Part shown: piece after piece, positions 7,236-31,761 of the stretch
Layout of the letters: each line of letters begins with the position of its first letter
Position numbering within the stretch: position 1 is the first letter of the stretch
NCBI RefSeq assembly: GCF_000011805.1
Contig: NC_006841.2
Direction: 5' to 3' (one strand)
Length of the DNA stretch: 32,000 nucleotides
DNA from: Aliivibrio fischeri ES114
GTDB taxonomy: Bacteria; Pseudomonadota; Gammaproteobacteria; Enterobacterales; Vibrionaceae
Translations under genes and position numbers: made by a program
The notes under the pieces: generated by a model
The model's input: only the letters and a program-made list of their open reading frames with translations
Told to the model about the DNA's origin: nothing
The model's database searches: none

Positions 7236-7322
7236 CTCGGAAGTATTTTCATTTTCGACAGATACAAAAAAGGCATCGTCTTTGGACAATGCCTTCGTTG
7301 TAGTGGCGGAGCGGACGGGACT
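7236..7322. repeat. reiterated tRNA-array unit (spacer + terminator + tRNA-Asp 3' end); partner copy at 7442..7528
   Basis: By-eye alignment gives 83/87 identical bases at an offset of 206 nt. A related upstream spacer motif (TTTTGAAACCCAGACTxTATCTG) recurs at about 7207, 7415 and 7589. Confidence 0.85.
7266..7295 (-). terminator. rho-independent terminator after the tRNA-like element
   Basis: The minus strand reads AAGGCATTGTC-CAAA-GACGATGCCTT followed by TTTTTG. Confidence 0.55.
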
Positions 7323-7412
7323 TTCTATCTCACCTTGAGAGCAGCACGACCCTCGGCGTGTCAGGCCGCTAAGCTCTCCAATAAAAAGCCTAACCAACTG
7401 AACTACCGCTCT
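7304..7412 (-). pseudogene. tRNA-Asp-derived mosaic element (tRNA-like, no TpsiC arm)
   Basis: 109 nt. The first 23 nt (1 mismatch) and the last 19 nt match the neighbouring tRNA-Asp, and the variable loop GGGTC is retained. The D-stem 3' strand and the T-arm 5' half are replaced by unrelated 21-nt and 26-nt blocks, and the anticodon loop reads CTGACAC. Confidence 0.55.
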
Positions 7413-7509: not shown

Positions 7510-7586
7510 TGGCGGAGCGGACGGGACTCGAACCCGCGACCCCCGGCGTGACAGGCCGGTATTCTAACCAACTGAACTACCGCTCC
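7510..7586 (-). tRNA. tRNA-Asp (GUC)
   Basis: The reverse complement is GGAGCGGTAGTTCAGTTGGTTAGAATACCGGCCTGTCACGCCGGGGGTCGCGGGTTCGAGTCCCGTCCGCTCCGCCA. It forms a full cloverleaf with anticodon loop CTGTCAC and an encoded CCA, and is near-identical to E. coli tRNA-Asp. Confidence 0.95.
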
Positions 7587-7625: not shown

Positions 7626-7716
7626 TGGCGGAGGGATAGGGATTTGAACCCTAGAAGGGCTATTAACCCTTGCCGGTTTTCAAGACCGGTGCTTTCGACC
7701 ACTCAGCCATCCCTCC
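7626..7716 (-). tRNA. tRNA-Ser (UGA)
   Basis: The reverse complement is GGAGGGATGGCTGAGTGGTCGAAAGCACCGGTCTTGAAAACCGGCAAGGGTTAATAGCCCTTCTAGGGTTCAAATCCCTATCCCTCCGCCA. This is a type II tRNA with a long variable arm and anticodon loop CTTGAAA. Confidence 0.93.
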
Positions 7717-16801: not shown

Positions 16802-18220
16802 TTAAAATAACTTATAATTTGAGGCGTTTCTCTGTTCTCTGTGTGTTTGCAGTTGAGCTATTTGTTTATAAATAACGTAATAGCGACTGATATTTGCAAC
16901 ATAGTGAACAGGCTCTTTACTTACGTACTTCCTTGCCATTATCTCGACGTTATTAAACCAAATATTAGGGTTATAACCGTGTTTTACTGCCATTCTACGC
17001 ATTTTTCGAACGTTAGCAGGGCCAGCATTATAAGCGGCTAAAGAAAAGTACATTTGGTTCTCTTCTGTTATCTCTGGTTTTAAAAAGTAACGTTTATGTA
17101 CAAAATTCATATATTTAACACCAGCATGGATGTTATTTTCTAGTTCTCTGAAGTTTTTGATATTGATATAAGGTTCTCTTGCCGTCTTCGGTAAAACTTG
17201 CATGATTCCAACAGCACCCATATGTGAGACAAGACGGTTATTGAATTTGGACTCTTGATAAGCTTGAGCTGAAATCATTAACCAATCAAATTCATATTTA
17301 TCCGCATATTGCTCAAAGAGCGTCGCTAAACTTTTAAATTGTTTTACTGTTTCAGGGTCTACTGCTTTTTTTAGCCACTTGGTGTTAGCAAGGTATTTTT
17401 TATAAATAACATTACCTAAAAAAGATCCTTGTCGAATAGTTCTAATGTATTTGTTTACTGCTGTTTTTAATTCTGGGCTGTTTTTTCTCATTGCCCAACC
17501 AATATTGGCGTTTTCTCTAATCGGAAGAGTTTCATATATGGTGATATTCTTCATGACTTGAGTCCAAAGACGAGATTTATGACTATCGATAACCGTAATT
17601 GGTAAAATATCTTGGTTGAGCATTTCCATTAATTCATAGTCTTGTAAGTTTTCTTCTAAGAATTGAACATTGATAGGGGAGATCCCTTGGGAAGATAACT
17701 GCTTATTAATTCGCTGTAAGCTCTCAAAATAGCTTGAGCTTGGTCTAACCCATACTTCTTTACCTGATAAATCTTCTAGAGATTCTAAAGGAGGTGTAGA
17801 TGGAGAGCTAACGAGCCACTCTTGGCTGTTACTGATCACAGGATCACTAAAATCGACATATTGTAGTCGCTGCGGGGTAATCGTTAGGTTGGCAACGGCA
17901 AGATCACCAAAGCCTCGTTCTAAAGCGGTAAATAAATCATCCCGAGGGATAGGGATGACTTGAACATTAACGTGAATTTTATTTTTGCGTAAATGTAATT
18001 CGAAATGATGAAGAAATTCGGCAATGATCCCCTTCGGTTGCCCTTTTTCTATGTAATAAAAGCCAAGATCAGCAGATACTAATACTCGTATCGTTCCTTT
18101 TTTCTCTAGTTCCTTCAAATCGCCAACATAAGGTGTTTGAGTTAACGGGGAAAGCTCTATTGCAAAAGCGAGCTGAGGAAGTAGTAATAATACCCAGAAA
18201 ACGCGACGTAAACGATCCAT
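16802..18220 (-). CDS. MltF-like lytic transglycosylase (periplasmic-binding-protein-like N-domain + SLT domain)
   Basis: Signal peptide, a PBP2-like N-terminal half, and SLT motifs ESKFN, GIMQV and AYNAGP. Confidence 0.8.
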   Translation of the reverse strand: MDRLRRVFWVLLLLPQLAFAIELSPLTQTPYVGDLKELEKKGTIRVLVSADLGFYYIEKGQPKGIIAEFLHHFELHLRKNKIHVNVQVIPIPRDDLFTALERGFGDLAVANLTITPQRLQYVDFSDPVISNSQEWLVSSPSTPPLESLEDLSGKEVWVRPSSSYFESLQRINKQLSSQGISPINVQFLEENLQDYELMEMLNQDILPITVIDSHKSRLWTQVMKNITIYETLPIRENANIGWAMRKNSPELKTAVNKYIRTIRQGSFLGNVIYKKYLANTKWLKKAVDPETVKQFKSLATLFEQYADKYEFDWLMISAQAYQESKFNNRLVSHMGAVGIMQVLPKTAREPYINIKNFRELENNIHAGVKYMNFVHKRYFLKPEITEENQMYFSLAAYNAGPANVRKMRRMAVKHGYNPNIWFNNVEIMARKYVSKEPVHYVANISRYYVIYKQIAQLQTHREQRNASNYKLF

Positions 18221-18310: not shown

Positions 18311-19744
18311 TTAGATATTATCAAAGTCGAATGTGGCTTTATTTAACGCATTACGTTGCTCTTTTTGTTCTTTTAACTGAACTATTTGTTTATAAATTAC
18401 ATAGTAACGACTTATGTTTGATACATAATGAACCGGTTCTTTACTGATATATTTCAACGCCATTAATTCCACATTATTGAACCAAACATTAGGGTCATAA
18501 CCTTGTTCTTGCGCTTTTTTTCGAATGCGTCTTATTTTAGCAGGTCCTGCATTATAAGCGGCTAATGAGAAGTAGAGCTGATTATCTGCGGATATTTCTG
18601 GTTTATCAAAATATCGTTTATGCACAAAGCTTAAGTATTTAATACCTGCATGTATGTTGTTTTCTAAGGTATAAATATTGTCTATTTGAACATGCTTATC
18701 TTTTGCTGTGCTCGGTAAGACTTGCATGATTCCAACAGCACCTTTATGAGATACGGCTTTATTATCCAACCTAGATTCTTGATAAGCTAAGGCTGAAGTT
18801 AGCTGCCAATCTAAGTTATACATACTAGAGTAGTGTTTAAATAAATCAGACAGCTCGTAAAGCTTATCGATATTATCGGTTTGTAGAATTTTCGCTAACC
18901 ACTTTTCGTCATTAAGGTATTTTTTATAAATTAAATTACCTAGAAATGACCCTTTTTTTATTTTAGTAATGTATTGATTTACGACATTAGTTAGCTGAGG
19001 GCTATTTTTTCGTACTGCCCATGCGATATTAATATCTTGTTTTAATGGGAATTCTTCATGATATTGAATGTTAGGGATGATCTTTTTCCATAGTATTGCT
19101 CGATAATTTTCTATTACGGTTGCTGGTAATAACTTATTTTCAACCATCTCAAGAACTTCATTATCACCTAATGATTCTTCTAAAAAATGAACATCCATAG
19201 GAGCCATATTATTTGACGTCAGTTGTTCATTAATGTTTTGAAGTGTCTCAAAGTAACTGGAGCTGCCTTTTACCCATATTTCTTTACCTGAAAGATCGGC
19301 TAGCTCAGTGATAGGGGCGTGTCCTTTAGCTGTGATTAACCACTCTTCACTGTCTTTTATTGTGGGAGTACTAAAGTCGATATGGCGTAATCGAGCTTTG
19401 GTGATCGCTAAGTGGCCAACGGCAATGTCTCCAAATCCTGCTTTTAATGACCATATTAAATCATCATCAGAGACGGGAATAATTCGAATATGAGTGTGAT
19501 CATTTTTTTTCGCTAAATGACGCTCAAAGTGTGAGAGAAATTCTGAAATTATTCCGATGGGTTTACCATTACTTACTTGATAAAAACCAACTTCCATTGA
19601 AACCAGAACACGAATTACCCCTTTTTTTGATATTTCATTGTAATCACCCTTATAGGATTTGTTACTTAGAGGGGCTAGCTCAAGTGCTTCAGCGTTTATA
19701 GGTAATATAAGTAGAGTAAAAAATAACTTATGGAATAGATTCAT
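18311..19744 (-). CDS. MltF-like lytic transglycosylase, tandem paralog
   Basis: Same architecture and colinear with 16802..18220, with roughly half to two-thirds identical residues by eye. Motifs ESRLD, GIMQV and AYNAGP. Confidence 0.8.
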   Translation of the reverse strand: MNLFHKLFFTLLILPINAEALELAPLSNKSYKGDYNEISKKGVIRVLVSMEVGFYQVSNGKPIGIISEFLSHFERHLAKKNDHTHIRIIPVSDDDLIWSLKAGFGDIAVGHLAITKARLRHIDFSTPTIKDSEEWLITAKGHAPITELADLSGKEIWVKGSSSYFETLQNINEQLTSNNMAPMDVHFLEESLGDNEVLEMVENKLLPATVIENYRAILWKKIIPNIQYHEEFPLKQDINIAWAVRKNSPQLTNVVNQYITKIKKGSFLGNLIYKKYLNDEKWLAKILQTDNIDKLYELSDLFKHYSSMYNLDWQLTSALAYQESRLDNKAVSHKGAVGIMQVLPSTAKDKHVQIDNIYTLENNIHAGIKYLSFVHKRYFDKPEISADNQLYFSLAAYNAGPAKIRRIRKKAQEQGYDPNVWFNNVELMALKYISKEPVHYVSNISRYYVIYKQIVQLKEQKEQRNALNKATFDFDNI

Positions 19745-21012: not shown

Positions 21013-21202
21013 AATGGCTTCCTTTTGTAAATAATTTCTAGTACCTAGTACTTGTCTCGTTTAGTTGTCTCTATTAAAGCAAATACAGTTTGAATCTAGC
21101 GTGAGGGAGATGTTCATATTCCATTCATTTTTAAACAAGAAGCGATAATCGATTGATGTTATTATTCTTGTTCTTAAAAATTTTATGAATTTAGATGGAA
21201 TT

Positions 21203-22690
21203 ATGCGTAAATATTCTCCCTTGATGGTTCAAGGAACCACATCAGATGCTGGAAAGACAGTTCTTGTGGCAGGCTTATGCCGATTACTTGCCAATAAAGG
21301 GATCCAAGTTGCCCCTTTTAAGCCACAGAATATGGCGTTAAATAGTGCAGTAACAGAAGATGGTGGAGAGATTGGCCGAGCTCAAGCTCTTCAAGCTGAT
21401 GCTGCAAGGGTTAAACCGCATGTTCATATGAATCCAATCTTACTGAAACCAAATACAGATATTGGCGCTCAAGTTATTGTCCAAGGAAAGGCGATTGAAA
21501 CCATGGATGCATGGGGCTTCCACGATTATAAAAAGTTGGCAATGCCATATGTATTAGAATCATTTTCTTATTTATCTAATAACTATGAATGCGTAGTTAT
21601 TGAAGGGGCAGGGAGCCCTGCTGAGATAAATTTACGTGAAAATGATATAGCGAATATGGGGTTTGCGGAGGCGGCAGACGTTCCTGTCATTATTGTTGCT
21701 GATATTGATCGTGGTGGGGTATTTGCCCATCTTTATGGCACATTGGCTTTATTGTCTGAATCAGAGCAAGCTCGAGTAAAAGGTTTCGTTATTAACCGTT
21801 TTCGTGGGGATATTTCACTTCTTGTTCCTGGGCTTGAATGGCTAGAAGAAAAAACGGGTAAGCCTGTATTGGGGGTCATTCCTTATTTGCATGGTTTAAA
21901 TTTAGAAGCTGAAGATGCGATAAAAAGTGAGCAATTGGATAAAGGTAAATTTATCGTAAAAGTGCCAGTGGTAACTCGTATTAGTAACCATACGGATTTT
22001 GATCCATTGCGTTTGCATCCAGAGATTGATTTGCAATTTATCGGGAAAGGCGATTCTTTATCTGGCGCTGATTTTATTATTTTACCAGGAAGCAAATCGG
22101 TTCAGGCGGACTTAGAATACATAAAATCTCAAGGTTGGGATAAAGATATTGAGCGCCATTTACGATATGGCGGAAAAGTAATGGGAATTTGTGGCGGTTA
22201 TCAAATGCTTGGTGAGCATCTTGCCGACCCTCTTGGTATTGAAGGTGTCCCATGTCGCGTTAAAGGATTGGGGTATTTATCCATTTCAACAGAACTACAA
22301 AAACAGAAGCAACTAACGTTAGTGGAAGGCACACTAGCACTGCCTAATCAAAATGCGGTCAAAGTAAAAGGGTATGAGATACATGCAGGTGTAAGCACTA
22401 ACTTAGGAAAAGAGCACATACCAATCAGTATTCATACAAAAGATGCGATGAGATATGATGGTACTATTAATGATGAAAATTCTATTTTTGGTACGTACTT
22501 ACATGGCGTTTTTGATGAACCAGAAGCATTTGAAGCGATTTTAACGTGGGCTGGATTAGAAAAATGTCAAGCAATTAATATGCACGATATCCAAGAAGAG
22601 GCCATTGAGCGCATTGCAAAATCAATGGAAGACAGTTTAGATTTATCATTAATTTGGCCTGATGTTTTTGAAAAGAATAAAGCTTATTAA
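21203..22690 (+). CDS. cobQ: cobyric acid synthase
   Basis: [12 protein letters not shown] aligns with the Salmonella CbiP MLQGTASDVGKS. Also [18 protein letters not shown], and a C-terminal amidotransferase domain ([13 protein letters not shown]). The ATG at 21203 is preferred; 21185 is possible. Confidence 0.9.
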
Positions 22691-22701
22691 AGGGAACACT
22701 A

Positions 22702-23439
22702 ATGTTACGAATAACGCTGTTTTTAACTTTAATGATGAGTACATTTTTTGCTTCTGCAAATGTGACGGTTTATGCCGCATCATCATTAACAAATGTAATG
22801 GATGACATTGTTTATGCTTACCAACGCCAAACTGGAAATAAAATTCGTGTAAGTTATGCGGGTTCATCTTCTCTTGCTCGTCAGATAGCTAACGGAGCAC
22901 CTGCTGATATTTATTTATCTGCTAACACTAAGTGGATGGATTATTTACTAAATCAAGGCCAAATAGAACCAGGCACAAATCGAGATTTATTAAAAAATAG
23001 TTTAGTACTCGTTGCTTCAAAAAGTACACCAAAAGTGGATTCGTGGCAGTGGTTTATACAGCAAAAAGATCTACGTTTATCTATGGCTGATCCTAGACAC
23101 GTACCGGCAGGTATTTATGGTAAACAGAGTCTAGAGAACCAAAAACGTTGGGAGTCTGTCAGTCATCGAATTGCATCAGGAAATAATGTCCGTTCTGCAC
23201 TGCTGTTTGTAGAACGTGATGAAGCACCATTAGGTATTGTATATAAAACCGATGCGCTTTCTTCAAAAGGTGTGACGATTGTTGAGGAATTTCCTAATGA
23301 AACACACGATCCGATTATTTATCCTGTAGCTATCGTTAAAGATAAATCATCACAAGAGGTGCTCGATTTTTATCATTACTTACTATCTAAAAAGGCAACA
23401 GATCAATTTATGAAATACGGATTTACCCCTTTCAAATGA
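22702..23439 (+). CDS. modA: molybdate ABC transporter periplasmic binding protein
   Basis: Signal peptide then VTVYAASSLTNVMDDI, PADIYLSAN and a later VPAGIYGKQ motif. It lies directly upstream of modB and modC. Confidence 0.9.
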   Translation: MLRITLFLTLMMSTFFASANVTVYAASSLTNVMDDIVYAYQRQTGNKIRVSYAGSSSLARQIANGAPADIYLSANTKWMDYLLNQGQIEPGTNRDLLKNSLVLVASKSTPKVDSWQWFIQQKDLRLSMADPRHVPAGIYGKQSLENQKRWESVSHRIASGNNVRSALLFVERDEAPLGIVYKTDALSSKGVTIVEEFPNETHDPIIYPVAIVKDKSSQEVLDFYHYLLSKKATDQFMKYGFTPFK

Positions 23440-24125
23440 TACTGACAGATTACGAAATAGAAGCGTTACTGCTGAGTTTAAAAATTGCTGGGATTGCGGT
23501 GAGCTTTTCATTGCCCATCGGGATCTTGCTTGCTTGGTTATTAGCGCGTTGTGACTTCAAAGGAAAGTCTATACTAGATGGTATCATTCATTTACCTTTG
23601 GTATTACCACCTGTCGTTATTGGATATTTATTGCTTATTTCAATGGGGCGACAAGGTATTATTGGTAAATGGCTCTATGAATGGTTTGGGTTAACCTTTA
23701 GCTTTAACTGGAAAGGTGCCGCTTTAGCCTCCGCGATTGTCGCTTTGCCGTTGATGGTTCGTGCGATTCGTTTAGCGTTAGAATCTGTTGATCAAAAACT
23801 GGAACAGGCGGCAAGAACACTTGGTGCTTCACGTTTTAAAGTCTTTTCTACTATCACGCTTCCCTTGATGCTGCCAGGTATTCTTACTGGAGCCGTTTTA
23901 GCTTTCGCACGCAGTTTGGGAGAGTTTGGGGCAACAATCAGTTTTGTATCTAATATTGAGGGTGAAACACGAACTTTACCCCTTGCTATGTTTAGCTATA
24001 TTGAAATTCCTGGAGCAGAAATGGAAGCTGCACGTTTGTGTGTTATTTCAATCATTGTCGCCTTAATTTCATTGCTATTATCTGAATTTTTAGCTCGTGC
24101 AAGCAAAAAGAAGTTGATGGGTTAA
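23436..24125 (+). CDS. modB: molybdate ABC transporter permease
   Basis: MetI-type permease with the EAA-loop region QAARTLGASRFKVFSTITLPL. The start overlaps the modA stop (ATGA). Confidence 0.9.
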   Translation: MILTDYEIEALLLSLKIAGIAVSFSLPIGILLAWLLARCDFKGKSILDGIIHLPLVLPPVVIGYLLLISMGRQGIIGKWLYEWFGLTFSFNWKGAALASAIVALPLMVRAIRLALESVDQKLEQAARTLGASRFKVFSTITLPLMLPGILTGAVLAFARSLGEFGATISFVSNIEGETRTLPLAMFSYIEIPGAEMEAARLCVISIIVALISLLLSEFLARASKKKLMG

Positions 24126-24128
24126 GTC

Positions 24129-25223
24129 ATGTTACTGATTGATATAAAAAAACAACTTGGTGATTTGTTATTAGACGTTAAGTTATCACTTCCTTCTTCT
24201 GGTATCAGTGCGATCTTTGGACGTTCTGGTGCAGGGAAATCCTCACTTGCCAATGTAATTAGCGGATTAACTTCTCCTGAAGAGGGCCGTATTACATTAA
24301 ATAATCGTGTTTTATTTGATTCAGAATCAAAAGTATCGATGCCGCCAGAAAAGCGTAATATCGGTTACGTTTTTCAAGATGCTCGTTTATTTCCTCATTA
24401 TAAAGTGGAAGGTAACTTGTTGTATGGGTGTGGTGGAAAAAGAACACCGCATTTTAACGATGTAGTGAAGTTATTAGATATTGAGTCCTTATTGACTCGT
24501 TATCCACATTCTTTATCTGGTGGTGAAAAGCAACGTGTTGCCATCGGACGAGCCATCTTATCTGAACCAGCACTGCTAATCATGGATGAGCCATTGGCGT
24601 CTTTAGATCTGCCAAGAAAACATGAGGTCATGCCTTATTTGGAGCGCCTTGCAAAAGAGATTAAAATTCCAATCCTTTATGTTTCACACAGCTTAGATGA
24701 AATTTTACGATTGGCCGATAATATGGTGCTGTTAAATCAAGGTAGCGTCAGTTTATCAGGAGATATTACCTCTGTTTGGGGCTCTCCGTTAATGAGACCG
24801 TGGTTAAACGCTTCGGAGCATTCTGCATTATTGGAAGGTACGATTTCTGAATTACATTCAGATCATCCTATGACAAAAGTGACACTCAATAATAGTCAAC
24901 AAGGTATTTGGGTAAAGTCTCCTTGTGATTGTGTTGAAGAAGGAAAAAAAATTCGTTTACGTATCCGCGCTAATGATGTATCACTCATTAAACAGCAGCC
25001 TCAACATAGCTCAATTCGTAATATTTTACCGGTTGTCATTGAAGATCTCAGTGAGGATAAAGAGAATGATGTTGTTGCGGTAAAATTAAACTTATCTGGC
25101 CATGTTTTATGGGCCAATATTACCCTTTGGGCTCGTGATGAGTTGCAGTTAGGTATAGGACAATCTTGGTTCGCTCAAATTAAAGGGGTCAGTGTGACAC
25201 AGTCTGATCTATGTTCAAAATAA
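24129..25223 (+). CDS. modC: molybdate ABC transporter ATP-binding protein
   Basis: Walker A GRSGAGKSS, signature LSGGEKQRV, Walker B LLIMDEP, and a C-terminal TOBE-like domain. Confidence 0.9.
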   Translation: MLLIDIKKQLGDLLLDVKLSLPSSGISAIFGRSGAGKSSLANVISGLTSPEEGRITLNNRVLFDSESKVSMPPEKRNIGYVFQDARLFPHYKVEGNLLYGCGGKRTPHFNDVVKLLDIESLLTRYPHSLSGGEKQRVAIGRAILSEPALLIMDEPLASLDLPRKHEVMPYLERLAKEIKIPILYVSHSLDEILRLADNMVLLNQGSVSLSGDITSVWGSPLMRPWLNASEHSALLEGTISELHSDHPMTKVTLNNSQQGIWVKSPCDCVEEGKKIRLRIRANDVSLIKQQPQHSSIRNILPVVIEDLSEDKENDVVAVKLNLSGHVLWANITLWARDELQLGIGQSWFAQIKGVSVTQSDLCSK

Positions 25224-26175: not shown

Positions 26176-26694
26176 TTACCACATTAAATCATCAGGAATA
26201 ACAAACTCTGCGTATGGGTCATCTTCGTCTTTTTCTTCTTCAGAAATAACGTTGTTTAACACTACGATAGACTCATCACGAAGTGTGATTTTGTCAGCAA
26301 CACCAGCAGGAACGACTTCGTAATCATCATTAAAGTTCACGATAGCAAGACGACCTGCAACGAGTTGATCTTGCATTGCTTTATCAACGTAAATTTTCTT
26401 CACTAACGTACCATCAGTAAAGTTATAACCGATATCACCATGTGCACGATCAATTTTGTTTACGCTAATTAGTTGCTTAATCTGAGCAGCTAATTCTTTT
26501 TGCTCTTTTTCGAGTTTCTGCTGCAGGCTTAATTCTTTGTCTCTTTCTGCTTGAGCGAGTTTATTTGCTTCAACCGCTGCTTTTGCTTCGCGATTTTGAA
26601 CTCTTGATTTTTTCGATGCTTTTTTTGCTTTCGCTGCTTTCTTTTGGTTCACTAACCCAGCTTTTAGCATTTGCTCTTGTAAGCTCAGTGCCAT
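26176..26694 (-). CDS. yaiL: DUF2058 nucleoprotein/polynucleotide-associated protein (YaiL family)
   Basis: LQEQMLKAGLV...KKAAK, GDIGYNFTDG, GRLAIV, and a C-terminal EDDPYAEFVIPDDLMW that matches the E. coli YaiL ending DDPYADFKVPDDLMW. Confidence 0.85.
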   Translation of the reverse strand: MALSLQEQMLKAGLVNQKKAAKAKKASKKSRVQNREAKAAVEANKLAQAERDKELSLQQKLEKEQKELAAQIKQLISVNKIDRAHGDIGYNFTDGTLVKKIYVDKAMQDQLVAGRLAIVNFNDDYEVVPAGVADKITLRDESIVVLNNVISEEEKDEDDPYAEFVIPDDLMW

Positions 26695-27417: not shown

Positions 27418-27594
27418 ATGAGCAATGTAGTAAAGCAAAGCGATGAAAATAAACGCTCTTCTGAATGGAAAGCATTTTTCTTCATCACAGTTGTTCTTTT
27501 CCCAATTTTAAGTGTGGGTGTGGTTGGTGCTTACGGTTTCTCTGTATGGTTCATGCAGATGCTGTTTTTTGGAATGCCTGGTCACGGCGGTTAA
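27418..27594 (+). CDS. torE: TorE (NapE-family small membrane subunit of the TMAO reductase system)
   Basis: 58 aa with a single TM (FFFITVVLFPILSVGVVGAYGF). AGGAA lies 7 nt before the ATG at 27418. It sits directly upstream of torC and torA. Confidence 0.8.
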   Translation: MSNVVKQSDENKRSSEWKAFFFITVVLFPILSVGVVGAYGFSVWFMQMLFFGMPGHGG

Positions 27595-27651: not shown

Positions 27652-28830
27652 ATGATGTCATTTATTAAAAAAGCTTGGGCTGTTTTTGCACGTCCGAGTG
27701 TTCATATCAGCTTGGGTGTTTTAACCCTTGGTGGTTTCGTTGCCGGGGTGATTTTCTGGGGTGGTTTTAATACTGCTTTAGAAGCAACAAATACAGAAGA
27801 ATTCTGTGTAAGCTGTCACGCAGATAACATTGCACCAGAATACGCTGGTACTATTCACGATAAAAACCGTTCAGGTGTACGTGCGACATGTCCAGACTGT
27901 CACGTTCCACATGATTGGACTTCAAAAATTGCTCGTAAAATGCAAGCAAGTAAAGAAGTATTTGCACACGTATTCGGCTTTATTGATACTCCAGAGAAAT
28001 TTGAAGAGCGTCGTATCATCTTAGCCCAACACGAGTGGGATCGCTTTAGCGCAAACAAATCTCTTGAATGTCGTAACTGTCACGACTACGACGGCATGGA
28101 TTTCTCTAAAATGCAGCCTACGGCTCGTATTCAAATGCAAGGTGCAAAAGAACGAGATCAAAGCTGTGTTGACTGTCACAAAGGTATCGCACACAAACTT
28201 CCAGCAAACATGGATAGCTCTGGTGGCATGATCAGCGAGTTAACTCAACTTGCAGGCAATACTAAGTATGAAGATGGTCAAACTTACGTTTCTGTTCGTC
28301 ACTTACCAATGTATGAAGATGAAAAACTAACTGTTGAAGCGGGTCTATTAAACCCTGCATCTCAAGTTACTGTACTTGAAGAGAAAGGCGATGCAATGAA
28401 AGTTGCTATCGACGGTTGGCGTAAAGTTAAAGGCTTCGGTCGTGTTATCCAAGAAGATTTTGGTATGAACATCGCTGTAGGTTCTTTACTTAAGAGCGTA
28501 TCTCAAAACGACAAATTTGTTCAGAAATTTGAAACTAAAGAAGATGAATTAACAGGTCTACCTTGGCAGCGTGTTACTGTGAATCTATGGATGAAGAAAG
28601 AAGACTTCATGCCTGATTACACAACGGTTTGGCAGAAAGCTGAAGAATCATACAAAACTAACTGTTCTGTATGTCACACACAGCCAGCAGAAGCACACTT
28701 CGATTCAAATACATGGCCTGGTATGTTTGACGGTATGATGGCATTCGTTAACTTCGATACAGACAGCAAGTCACTTGTATTGAAATACCTACAAAAACAC
28801 TCTTCAGATTTTTCTGACGAAAAACACTAA
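27652..28830 (+). CDS. torC: pentaheme c-type cytochrome TorC (NapC/NirT family + C-terminal monoheme domain)
   Basis: N-terminal membrane anchor and five CXXCH motifs: CVSCH, CPDCH, CRNCH, CVDCH and CSVCH. Confidence 0.93.
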
Positions 28831-28853: not shown

Positions 28854-31712
28854 ATGTCTATTAGCAGAAGAAGTTTTCTAAAAGGTGTTGCAACAACAAG
28901 TGCAGTATCTTTAGTAGGTCCAAGCCTACTAATGTCTTCAAAAGCAAATGCAGCTGAAACTACAGGTACATGGCGTACGTCTGGTTCACACTGGGGTGCA
29001 TTCCGTGCACACATCTACGGCGGTAAAGTTCAAGAGCTTAAAGCAATTGAATTAGATAAATACCCAACAGATATGTTGAATGGTATCAAAGGTATTATCT
29101 ACAGCCCAAGCCGTGTACGTTACCCAATGGTTCGTCTTGATTGGTTGAAAAAACACAAGTACTCAGCTGAGACTCGTGGTAACAACCGTTTTATCCGTGT
29201 AACTTGGGATGAAGCACTAGACCTTTTCTACCGTGAATTAGAGCGCGTTCAAAAAGACTACGGTCCATGGGCTCTACACGCAGGTCAAACTGGTTGGAAC
29301 CAAACAGGTTCTTTCCATAACTGTACAGCACAAATGCAACGTGCGGTTGGTATGCACGGTAACTTCATTAAGAAAGTAGGTGACTACTCGACGGGTGCTG
29401 GTCAAACGATCATGCCATACGTACTTGGTTCTACAGAAGTTTACGCACAAGGTACATCTTGGTCTGAGATCCTAAAACACTCAGACAACATTATCTTATG
29501 GGCAACGGATCCAGTTAAAAACTTACAAGTAGGTTGGAACTGTGAAACTCATGAATCTTACGCATACCTTGAGCAACTTAAAGAAAAAGTAGCGAAAGGT
29601 GAGATCAACGTACTTTCTGTTGACCCTGTTAAGAACAAAACACAGCGTTACCTACAGAATGACCACATGTACATTAACCCACAATCTGATGTGGCGTTCA
29701 TGCTGGCTGTAGCTTACACGCTATACACAGAAGACATGTACGATAAGAAGTTCATCGAAACTTACTGTTTAGGTTTTGATGAGTTCATGCAATACGTACT
29801 AGGTGAGACTAAAGATAAAGTAGTTAAAACTCCTGAGTGGGCTTCTGAAATCTGTGGCGTATCACCAGAGCAAATTCGTGAGTTTGCGAAAATGATGTCT
29901 ACTGGTCGTACACAGATCCTATTCGGCTGGTGTATTCAACGTCAACAACACGGTGAACAACCATACTGGATGGGTACAGTTCTATCAGCAATGACTGGTC
30001 AAATCGGTCTAGCTGGTGGTGGTGTATCTTACAGTCACCACTACTCAAGTGTTGGTGTTCCATCAACAGGATTCTCTGGTCCTGGTGGTTTCCCACGTAA
30101 CGTGGACCAAGGTCATGAGCCTAAATGGAATAACAATGACTACAACGGTTACAGCAGTACAATTCCTGTTGCTCGTTGGATCGACTGTCTATTAGAACCA
30201 GGTAAAGAGATCCGTTACAACGGTTCTAAAGTTGTACTACCTGATTTCAAAATGATGGTTATCTCTGGTAACAACCCTTGGCATCACCACCAAGATCGTA
30301 ACCGTATGAAGAAAGCGTTCCAAAAACTTCAAACTGTTGTGACAATTGATTTCACTTGGACTGCAACATGTCGTTTCTCAGACATCGTGCTACCAGCGTG
30401 TACGCAATGGGAACGTAATGATATTGACCAATACGGTTCATACTCTGCACGTGGTCTAATTGCAATGCATAAACTGGTTGATCCTCTGTATCAATCAAAA
30501 TCAGACTTCGAGATCATGACTGAGCTAACACGTCGTTTTGGCCGTCATAGCAGTACAATTCCTGTTGCTCGTTGGATCGACTGTCTATTAGAACCAGGTA
30601 AAGAGATCCGTTACAACGGTTCTAAAGTTGTACTACCTGATTTCAAAATGATGGTTATCTCTGGTAACAACCCTTGGCATCACCACCAAGATCGTAACCG
30701 TATGAAGAAAGCGTTCCAAAAACTTCAAACTGTTGTGACAATTGATTTCACTTGGACTGCAACATGTCGTTTCTCAGACATCGTGCTACCAGCGTGTACG
30801 CAATGGGAACGTAATGATATTGACCAATACGGTTCATACTCTGCACGTGGTCTAATTGCAATGCATAAACTGGTTGATCCTCTGTATCAATCAAAATCAG
30901 ACTTCGAGATCATGACTGAGCTAACACGTCGTTTTGGCCGTCATAAAGAATACACTCGTGGTATGGATGAAATGGAGTGGATCCGTTCACTTTATGCAGA
31001 ATGTCGCACAGCGAACGAAGGCAAGTTTGAAATGCCTGAGTTTGATGAGTTCTGGGAAAAAGGTGTTCTAGACTTCGGTGAAGGTAAGCCATGGGTACGT
31101 CATGCTGCGTTCCGTGAAGATCCAGAAGTTAACGCATTAGGTACACCATCAGGCTTCATCGAAATTTCAAGTCGTAAGATTGAACGTTTCGGTTATGAGC
31201 ACTGTCAAGGTCACCCAATGTGGTTCGAAAAATCAGAACGTTCACATGGTGGTCCTGGTTCTAAGAAACACCCATTCTGGATGCAATCTTGTCACCCTGA
31301 CAAGCGTCTGCACTCACAAATGTGTGATTCAGAAGAGTTCCGTGCAACTTACACAGTTCAAGGTCGTGAGCCGGTATACTTAAACCCACAAGATGCTAAA
31401 GAAAAAGGCATCAAAGATGGTGATTTAGTACGCGTATTTAATGATCGTGGTCAACTACTAGCTGGTGCAGTTCTAACTGATAGCTACCCACGTGGTGTTA
31501 TCCGTATTGAAGAAGGTGCATGGTACGGTCCATTGAACGAAAAAGTAGGTGCTATTTGTACTTACGGTGATCCAAACACATTAACGCAAGATATCCCATC
31601 ATCTGAGCTAGCTCAGGCGACATCTGCAAACACATGTTTGGTTGATTATGAGAAGTTCACAGGTAAAGTTCCACCAGTAACGTCATTCGGTGGTCCAATT
31701 ATTATTGAATAA
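28854..31712 (+). CDS. torA: trimethylamine-N-oxide reductase catalytic subunit (molybdopterin, Tat-exported) carrying an internal 132-codon tandem duplication
   Basis: Twin-arginine signal [12 protein letters not shown]...ANA, with DMSO-reductase-family sequence throughout. The ORF is 952 aa because residues SSTIPVARW...RRFGRH occur twice in succession. Confidence 0.93.
30153..30944 (+). repeat. perfect 2 x 396-bp direct tandem repeat inside torA
   Basis: Compared base by base by eye, 30153..30548 is identical to 30549..30944. The unit starts at the first base of torA codon 434 and is 132 codons long. Confidence 0.97.
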
Positions 31713-31732
31713 TCATAATAATAAATAATATT

Positions 31733-31761
31733 AAAAAGCACCTAATTTAGGTGCTTTTTTT
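31733..31761 (+). terminator. rho-independent terminator of torECA
   Basis: AAAAAGCACCTA-att-TAGGTGCTTTTTTT, starting 21 nt after the torA stop. Confidence 0.75.

What the first reader, a model, noticed from the sequence alone, without database searches (positions are those of the whole stretch)
30153..30944. Base-perfect, codon-exact 396-bp tandem duplication in the middle of torA
Seen in the sequence: 30153..30548 and 30549..30944 are identical at every base I compared. The unit begins exactly at codon 434 of torA and is 132 codons, so the frame is preserved and the ORF grows to 952 aa. Removing one copy gives 820 aa, the usual size for TorA/DMSO-reductase-family catalytic subunits (established knowledge). 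The repeated block ([24 protein letters not shown]...[10 protein letters not shown]) lies in the interior of the molybdopterin-binding fold, not at a tolerant terminus. TorA must also acquire its cofactor in the cytoplasm and pass Tat folding proofreading. An intact-looking ORF may therefore encode a non-exportable or inactive enzyme (inference). Zero divergence between copies means the event is very recent, is continually homogenised, or is an assembly or editing artefact. The junction shows only 1 nt of microhomology (A), which is unusual for spontaneous duplications. If real, two perfect 396-bp direct repeats are an efficient substrate for homologous deletion. The locus could then act as a reversible on/off switch for TMAO respiration within a population.
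Basis: partly seen in the sequence, partly recalled or inferred. Interest (0 to 1): 0.8.

Follow-up and report, generated by a model that had tools for sequence, protein, structure and literature searches.

The report
Assembly-error repeat inside torA gene
The perfect 396-base repeat inside the TMAO-reductase gene torA is really in this sequence, but it is almost certainly a leftover assembly error in the Aliivibrio (Vibrio) fischeri ES114 reference genome, because independent sequencing of the same strain shows one copy.

Summary
Bases 30153-30548 and 30549-30944 are identical at all 396 positions. The repeat is in frame at codon 434 of torA and gives a 952-aa ORF.

The window is chromosome II of Aliivibrio fischeri ES114. 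The 952-aa product is exactly AAW87369.1 / WP_011263185.1 / Q5E0S7. Removing one copy gives an 820-aa protein that is residue-for-residue the TorA seen on 145 other A. fischeri contigs.

Four independent Logan assemblies of public sequencing runs are 100.000% identical to the de-duplicated window, with no mismatch or gap over 9.5-20.4 kb. One of these contigs is seen in 20 or more samples. They carry a protein variant whose only NCBI accession is from ES114. All run straight through torA with one copy and none of the 29 junction 31-mers.

All 96 related loci have one copy. The ES114 assembly is documented to have held 14 PCR-disproved tandem "artefactual expansions" of 318-1264 bp (Mandel, Stabb & Ruby 2008). 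That screen relied on split ORFs, so an in-frame repeat would escape it.

Verdict: an uncorrected assembly artefact, not a biological duplication or switch. The biological interest is low. The practical value is a correction to a heavily used reference genome.

The parts
28854..31712 (+). torA ORF as written in the window. It is 952 aa including the extraneous repeat, and the true gene is most likely 2463 bp / 820 aa. Residues 4-10 read SRRSFLK, a Tat signal motif.
   Evidence: ORF list. The product is an exact match to AAW87369.1 / WP_011263185.1 / Q5E0S7, TorA of A. fischeri ES114. Pfam finds PF18364, PF00384 and PF01568. The 820-aa form aligns end to end with Shewanella massilia TorA, 1TMO.
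30153..30548 (+). Copy 1 of the 396-bp unit (codons 434-565, SSTIPVARW...TRRFGRH).
   Evidence: Identical to copy 2 at 396 of 396 bases.
30549..30944 (+). Copy 2 of the 396-bp unit. This is the extraneous sequence; either copy can be deleted with the same result.
   Evidence: It is absent from ES114-identical assemblies L091, L092, L094 and L096. It is also absent from all 96 related loci.
30520..30578 (+). Novel junction (...CGTCAT|AGCAGT...), covered by 29 junction-specific 31-mers starting at 30520-30548.
   Evidence: De Bruijn check. None of the 29 junction 31-mers is present in L091, L092 or L093-L096. The 40-mer junction is absent from the first 92 loci. The 32-mer junction is absent from the metagenome contigs.
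27652..28830 (+). torC, the pentahaem c-type cytochrome (392 aa), immediately upstream of torA in the same operon.
   Evidence: ORF list. Exact match to AAW87368.1, TorC. Pfam Cytochrom_NNT in the orthologous loci.
27418..27594 (+). torE (58 aa, NapE/TorE family), the first gene of torECA.
   Evidence: Called as a 58-aa PF06796 NapE gene in all orthologous loci. The sequence is identical in 11 of 11 strains checked.
31733..31759 (+). Terminator-like hairpin followed by a T run, just after the torA stop codon.

Best explanation
The second 396-bp copy is not in the organism. It is an uncorrected 'artefactual expansion' in the published assembly of Aliivibrio fischeri ES114 chromosome II. During assembly or finishing, which was done around 2001 with Sanger reads, two sequence pieces that overlapped by 396 bp were joined end to end instead of being merged. 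This wrote the overlap twice. The overlap happened to be a multiple of three and error-free, so torA stayed one open reading frame (952 aa instead of 820 aa). It therefore escaped the 2008 clean-up of this genome, which found such errors mainly through split ORFs. The real locus is an ordinary torECA operon with an ordinary 820-aa Tat-exported TorA.

Shown here: the repeat, the strain identity, the single copy in independent data from the same strain and in all relatives, and the precedent in this assembly. Inferred: the exact finishing step that produced it.
For: 1. Strain identity. The 952-aa product is exactly AAW87369.1 / WP_011263185.1 / Q5E0S7 of ES114. It is seen on one record of 1,330,333 bp.

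2. Independent sequencing of the same strain shows one copy. The 501-aa product of window 21185-22690 has ES114's AAW87359.1 as its only NCBI accession and is otherwise seen only in Logan run assemblies (61 contigs). Contigs carrying it or its neighbour ModC come from four different runs.
- SRR3826859: contig of 30 kb.
- SRR27724182: contig of 56 kb.
- SRR3826902: contig of 89 kb, the same contig seen in 20 or more samples.
- SRR28016261: contig of 74 kb.
These are 100.000% identical to the de-duplicated window over 20,420, 11,937, 15,476 and 9,464 bp, with 0 mismatches and 0 gaps. Each has one copy of the unit and 0 of 29 junction 31-mers. The closest other strain differs at 17 to 47 positions over the same stretch.

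3. A k=31 de Bruijn graph of the duplicated sequence has branch nodes at both unit borders. The single-copy version has none. A real duplication should therefore break such contigs at the unit rather than let them run through.

4. The de-duplicated protein is residue-for-residue the TorA seen on 145 contigs of other A. fischeri strains.
- All 120 best database homologues are 818-825 aa.
- All 96 related loci hold the unit exactly once. They comprise 80 GTDB species-representative genomes and 16 A. fischeri contigs.
- The 820-aa form is colinear with the crystal-structure TorA 1TMO, with no gap at the unit.

5. Precedent in this very assembly. Mandel, Stabb & Ruby 2008 (PMC2330054) showed by PCR that 14 regions of 318-1264 bp of unique DNA had been 'incorporated in tandem'. 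All 12 genic cases were found because they split an ORF. torA is not in their Table 1 or supplements.

6. Zero divergence and essentially no junctional homology are what concatenating an overlap produces.
Against: - No raw reads, read depth or PCR were available here. Single copy is inferred from assemblies, and short-read assemblers can in principle collapse perfect tandem repeats.
[quoted passage not shown] This repeat is perfect.
- The 2008 authors also compared ES114 with MJ11 visually in Mauve and did not list this site.
- The SRA runs are assigned to ES114 by sequence identity and by an ES114-only protein variant, not from their metadata.
- Dunn & Stabb 2008, the ES114 torA genetics paper, could not be read.
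Confidence: 0.9

Rival explanations
1. The duplication was real, but only in the particular ES114 culture or clone library sequenced around 2001. It would be a spontaneous, unstable tandem duplication that is absent from, or has been lost by homologous deletion in, the laboratory stocks sequenced later.
For: The repeat is perfect and head to tail, as a very recent duplication would be. It is not among the 14 artefacts that were PCR-checked. No data from the original traces are available.
Against: - Every independent ES114-identical assembly examined has one copy. That is four runs, one of whose contigs is seen in 20 or more samples.
- For a shotgun consensus to carry the repeat, a spontaneous 396-bp duplication with only 1 nt of junction homology would have had to be fixed in the sequenced culture.
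- The same assembly has 14 proven artefacts of identical form.
- The event would also disrupt the interior of the molybdopterin domain.
Confidence: 0.06
2. The duplication is a stable, genuine feature of ES114, and every short-read assembly has silently collapsed it to one copy.
For: Perfect tandem repeats longer than the read or k-mer length cannot be resolved by de Bruijn assemblers. All four ES114-type contigs are Logan (k=31) assemblies.
Against: A real junction contributes 29 unique 31-mers and creates in- and out-branches at both unit borders. This should end contigs there. Instead, contigs of 30-89 kb pass through with no junction k-mers. Complete 820-aa TorA products identical to the de-duplicated one are on record in 191 blocks of the collection. 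I did not inspect the assembler's behaviour directly, so this rival is not fully excluded.
Confidence: 0.03
3. The locus is a population-level reversible switch. Cells would alternate between a two-copy (TorA-off) and a one-copy (TorA-on) allele by recA-dependent recombination.
For: Only the formal possibility that two perfect 396-bp direct repeats recombine efficiently (established knowledge of RecA-dependent deletion between direct repeats).
Against: No independent data set shows the two-copy state. No other strain or species shows one, two or more copies varying at this site. Re-creating the duplication from a single copy with only 1 nt of homology would be very rare, so the 'switch' would run one way only.
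Confidence: 0.01

Closest known systems
The 14 'artefactual expansions' of the V. fischeri ES114 version 1.0 assembly (Mandel, Stabb & Ruby 2008, BMC Genomics 9:138, PMC2330054)
   Same: - It is the same genome assembly.
- It is a tandem direct repeat of otherwise unique DNA.
- Its size, 396 bp, falls in the reported 318-1264 bp range.
- It is absent from conspecific strains.
- It is absent on independent re-examination of ES114, by PCR in the paper and by independent assemblies here.
   Different: - It is not in their list of corrected loci.
[quoted passage not shown]
- It is in frame, so it lengthens one ORF instead of splitting it.
- It is still present in the record that carries AAW87369.1 / WP_011263185.1.
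- It has not been PCR-tested, to my knowledge.
TorA, the periplasmic TMAO reductase of the DMSO-reductase family (Shewanella massilia 1TMO; E. coli TorA 9H4T)
   Same: After one copy is removed, the protein is 820 aa. It aligns from residue 4 to residue 820 with 1TMO at 1295 bits. It has the PF18364/PF00384/PF01568 architecture and a SRRSFLK Tat motif, and it sits in a torE-torC-torA operon.
   Different: As written in the window, residues 434-565 occur twice. None of the 120 best homologues is longer than 825 aa, and none of the 96 related loci holds the unit twice.
Genuine spontaneous tandem duplications in bacterial genomes (RecA-dependent or microhomology-mediated, unstable, lost by homologous deletion)
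   Same: Head-to-tail arrangement and zero divergence between the copies.
   Different: Genuine duplications leave junction reads in independent sequencing of the strain. None is seen here. The junction has only 1 nt of homology.

Membership tests
Artefactual expansion (assembly error) of the ES114 reference, as defined by Mandel et al. 2008 | Unique DNA written twice in tandem, a few hundred to about 1300 bp long | tested here: met
   396 bp x 2, 100% identical. The paper's range is 318-1264 bp.
Artefactual expansion (assembly error) of the ES114 reference, as defined by Mandel et al. 2008 | The extra copy is absent from conspecific strains | tested here: met
   The A. fischeri contigs L006, L081-L090, L093 and L095 all have one copy and an 820-aa TorA. 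The 820-aa sequence is seen on 145 contigs.
Artefactual expansion (assembly error) of the ES114 reference, as defined by Mandel et al. 2008 | The extra copy is absent when the same strain is re-examined independently | tested here: met
   L091, L092, L094 and L096 come from four SRA runs. They are 100.000% identical to the de-duplicated window, with one copy and 0 of 29 junction 31-mers. This rests on assemblies, not on PCR or reads.
Artefactual expansion (assembly error) of the ES114 reference, as defined by Mandel et al. 2008 | The PCR product from unique flanks is smaller than the published sequence predicts | not testable with these tools
   This needs wet-lab PCR across 30100..31000. The expected product is about 505 bp, against about 901 bp if the repeat is real.
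Artefactual expansion (assembly error) of the ES114 reference, as defined by Mandel et al. 2008 | A few aberrant bases at the repeat ends (described as typical, not obligatory) | tested here: not met
   The copies and flanks are error-free. The de-duplicated window has 0 mismatches to L091 over 20,420 bp.
TorA (TMAO reductase, DMSO-reductase family) | N-terminal twin-arginine (Tat) signal | tested here: met
   Residues 4-10 read SRRSFLK, followed by a hydrophobic stretch and ANA (translation; the motif is established knowledge).
TorA (TMAO reductase, DMSO-reductase family) | Molybdopterin_N, Molybdopterin and Molydop_binding domain order, with full-length colinearity to a solved TorA | tested here: met
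   Pfam. The 820-aa form aligns 4-820 to 1TMO residues 2-828 at 1295 bits. The 952-aa form needs two PF00384 stretches.
TorA (TMAO reductase, DMSO-reductase family) | Encoded next to the pentahaem cytochrome TorC (and TorE) | tested here: met
   torE 27418-27594 and torC 27652-28830 lie directly upstream.
TorA (TMAO reductase, DMSO-reductase family) | TMAO reductase activity | not testable with these tools
   This needs an enzyme assay or growth test. The ES114 genetics paper (Dunn & Stabb 2008) is not held.
Genuine intragenic tandem duplication or copy-number switch | The junction sequence is present in independent data from the strain | tested here: not met
   0 of 29 junction 31-mers in four ES114-identical assemblies. 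The junction is absent from the first 92 fetched loci and from the metagenome contigs.
Genuine intragenic tandem duplication or copy-number switch | Copy number varies among related strains or species | tested here: not met
   One copy in 96 of 96 related loci. Homologue lengths are 818-825 aa.

The most novel reading that the evidence does not exclude
The two-copy torA allele existed in the ES114 culture that was sequenced and coexists at low frequency with the one-copy allele. It would then be a naturally arising, revertible knock-out of the main TMAO reductase in the squid symbiont.
Probability: 0.03. Interest if true: 0.45.

Novelty: not a real feature. Interest (0 to 1): 0.08.

Why it matters
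Biologically this matters little, because the locus is an ordinary torECA operon. Practically it matters for four reasons.

- ES114 is the reference strain of the squid-vibrio symbiosis model. The erroneous 952-aa TorA is propagated in protein databases as AAW87369.1, WP_011263185.1 and Q5E0S7.
- The 792-bp perfect repeat makes short reads multi-map. RNA-seq, Tn-seq and variant calls over the middle of torA may therefore be distorted when this reference is used (inference).
- The 2008 clean-up of this genome had a blind spot for in-frame, ORF-preserving expansions. A genome-wide scan of the reference for perfect tandem repeats of 300 bp or more could reveal other survivors.
- More generally, base-perfect, homology-free tandem repeats in Sanger-era 'finished' genomes should be suspected as artefacts before they are interpreted as biology.

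Tried and rejected
- Exact look-up of the 952-aa product among called genes found nothing. The cluster look-up, however, shows it is the ES114 GenBank protein.
- A scan of metagenome contigs for the 32-nt junction gave 0 hits. This is uninformative beyond 'not seen'.
- Literature searches found nothing relevant.
  - The search for torA + duplication + ES114 gave 0 papers.
  - Searches on torECA and TMAO reductase in V. fischeri returned only citing papers.
  - The search for ES114 misassembly gave nothing relevant.
  - The SRA run ids appear in no held paper.
- Dunn & Stabb 2008 (J Bacteriol 190:5814, PMC2519543) is not held. From memory only, it reports that torECA encodes the principal TMAO reductase of ES114. 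If so, that would fit an intact gene, but I could not verify it and give it no weight.
- The main text and supplements of Mandel et al. 2008 contain no mention of torA or TMAO.
- The first batch of long contigs carrying the 820-aa TorA were all other strains, at 98.1-99.86% identity. ES114-type contigs were reached only by querying an ES114-specific neighbouring protein.
- I considered predicting the structure of the 952-aa protein. I dropped it because it cannot distinguish an artefact from a real duplication.
- I considered a planted or edited sequence. I rejected it because the 952-aa protein is in GenBank, RefSeq and UniProt.

Full report
**1. The observation**

The window carries a base-perfect tandem duplication. 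Positions 30153-30548 and 30549-30944 are identical at 396 of 396 bases. Tandem Repeats Finder reports period 396, 2.0 copies, 100% matches and score 1586. The match extends 0 bases to the left and 1 base (A) to the right, so the junction ...CGTCAT|AGCAGT... shares a single nucleotide with the right flank.

The unit begins at codon 434 of the ORF 28854..31712 and is 132 codons long. The ORF therefore stays open and reads 952 aa. Deleting one copy gives 820 aa. No other long repeat exists in the window; the next longest exact direct repeat is 48 bp, near two tRNA genes.

**2. What the gene is**

The ORF is torA. It has an N-terminal SRRSFLK twin-arginine motif. Pfam finds Molybdopterin_N, Molybdopterin (87-560) and Molydop_binding domains. 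It lies directly after torE (27418-27594) and torC (27652-28830), and a terminator-like hairpin follows at 31733-31759.

The 820-aa form aligns from residue 4 to 820 with the crystal-structure TorA of Shewanella massilia (1TMO, 1295 bits), with no gap around residues 434-565. In the 952-aa form Pfam needs two PF00384 stretches.

**3. Where the window comes from**

The 952-aa product is exactly AAW87369.1 / WP_011263185.1 / UniRef100_Q5E0S7. This is the 'TMAO reductase I, catalytic subunit' of Aliivibrio fischeri ES114, seen on one record of 1,330,333 bp. The neighbouring TorC is AAW87368.1. So the repeat was not planted in the window. It is in the public reference genome of the squid symbiont ES114, chromosome II.

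**4. Comparison with relatives**

- All 120 best database homologues are 818-825 aa and none is 952 aa.
- The de-duplicated 820-aa sequence is residue-for-residue a TorA on record on 145 contigs of other A. fischeri strains.
- In 80 loci from GTDB species-representative genomes (mainly Aliivibrio, Vibrio and Photobacterium) and 16 A. fischeri contigs, the 132-aa unit occurs exactly once per locus. Only the window has it twice.
- There are therefore no diverged second copies anywhere, which rules out an old, tolerated insertion.

**5. Independent sequencing of the same strain**

This is the key test. The first ten long contigs carrying the 820-aa TorA were other strains, 98.1-99.86% identical to the window.

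To reach ES114 itself I looked for a neighbouring protein variant specific to it. The 501-aa product of 21185-22690 is found in none of those strains. Its only NCBI accession is ES114's AAW87359.1, and it is otherwise seen only in Logan assemblies of public sequencing runs, on 61 contigs.

Contigs carrying it or the adjacent ModC come from four different runs:

| Run | Locus | Contig length | Aligned to the de-duplicated window |
|---|---|---|---|
| SRR3826859 | L091 | 30,344 bp | 20,420 bp |
| SRR27724182 | L092 | 56,302 bp | 11,937 bp |
| SRR3826902 | L094 | 88,645 bp (same contig in 20 or more samples) | 15,476 bp |
| SRR28016261 | L096 | 74,208 bp | 9,464 bp |

All four alignments are 100.000% identical, with 0 mismatches and 0 gaps. 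Each contig has one copy of the unit and an 820-aa TorA.

A k=31 de Bruijn check shows what a real duplication would do. The duplicated sequence creates 29 junction-specific 31-mers and in- and out-branches at both unit borders. The single-copy sequence has none. A real duplication should therefore end such contigs at the unit. Instead they run through, with 0 of 29 junction 31-mers.

**6. Precedent**

Mandel, Stabb and Ruby (2008, PMC2330054) re-examined this same assembly. [quoted passage not shown] They attributed these to contig ends assembled in tandem rather than as overlaps, and every one was disproved by PCR.

Their screen looked mainly for one MJ11 gene hitting two adjacent ES114 ORFs, or for odd ORF ends. 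All 12 genic expansions in their Table 1 are listed as ORF fusions. torA is not in the table, text or supplements. An error-free overlap whose length is a multiple of three keeps the ORF intact, and that is exactly what such a screen cannot see.

Writing a 396-bp overlap twice also explains zero divergence and the near absence of junction homology.

**7. Conclusion**

The second copy is most likely an uncorrected fifteenth artefactual expansion (confidence about 0.9).

The remaining probability is spread over three rivals:
- A duplication that was real only in the sequenced culture (about 0.06).
- A real duplication that every short-read assembly has collapsed (about 0.03). The unbroken contigs argue against this, but I could not inspect reads.
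- A reversible switch (about 0.01).

It is moot if the insertion does not exist.

**8. Limits**

- No reads, depths or PCR were available.
- The four runs are assigned to ES114 by perfect identity and an ES114-only protein variant, not by metadata.
- This repeat lacks the 'few unique base pairs' at the ends that were typical of the 14 published cases.
- The ES114 torA genetics paper (Dunn & Stabb 2008) is not held.

**9. Value**

The biological interest is low. The practical interest is a correction to a much-used reference genome and to its RefSeq and UniProt protein entries. There is also a hint that other in-frame expansions may have survived the 2008 clean-up.

Noticed in passing
window 7304-7412 (- strand), next to tRNA-Asp 7510-7586 and tRNA-Ser 7626-7716: There is a degenerate tRNA-Asp-like copy here. 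The acceptor, D and T arm segments match the intact tRNA-Asp, but there are two insertions of about 16 nt and GTC is changed to GAC at the anticodon position. Neither ARAGORN nor Rfam calls it. It could be a tRNA pseudogene or another flaw in the reference. The ES114-type contigs I fetched do not cover this region.
   Followed up: partly
whole ES114 reference (outside the window); Table 1 of PMC2330054: All 12 genic 'artefactual expansions' corrected in 2008 were detected as split ORFs. In-frame, ORF-preserving expansions such as this one were invisible to that screen, so more may remain in the reference.
   Followed up: no
window 21185-25223 (+): A 501-aa cobyric-acid-synthase-like gene (CbiA/GATase_3) and a modABC-type molybdate transporter (245, 229 and 364 aa, the last with a TOBE domain) sit a few kb upstream of torECA. 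Molybdate uptake is a plausible neighbour for a molybdoenzyme. The 501-aa sequence variant is specific to ES114 among named NCBI entries.
   Followed up: partly
window 26611-26646, inside ORF 26176-26694 (- strand, DUF2058): A short 18-bp tandem repeat, 1.9 copies, 88% matches. It is probably a low-complexity coding repeat.
   Followed up: no
window 16802-18220 and 18311-19744 (- strand): Two adjacent paralogous genes (472 and 477 aa) with SBP_bac_3 and SLT domains. They share a 23-bp exact match. This is a genuine, diverged tandem gene pair, in contrast to the perfect torA repeat.
   Followed up: no
tool behaviour: The gene-position index holds no record of the 952-aa product. Yet the cluster tables show it as AAW87369.1 on the 1,330,333-bp ES114 record, and the neighbouring AAW87359.1 is indexed on a contig of that length. 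I cannot explain this. It has no bearing on the conclusion.
   Followed up: no
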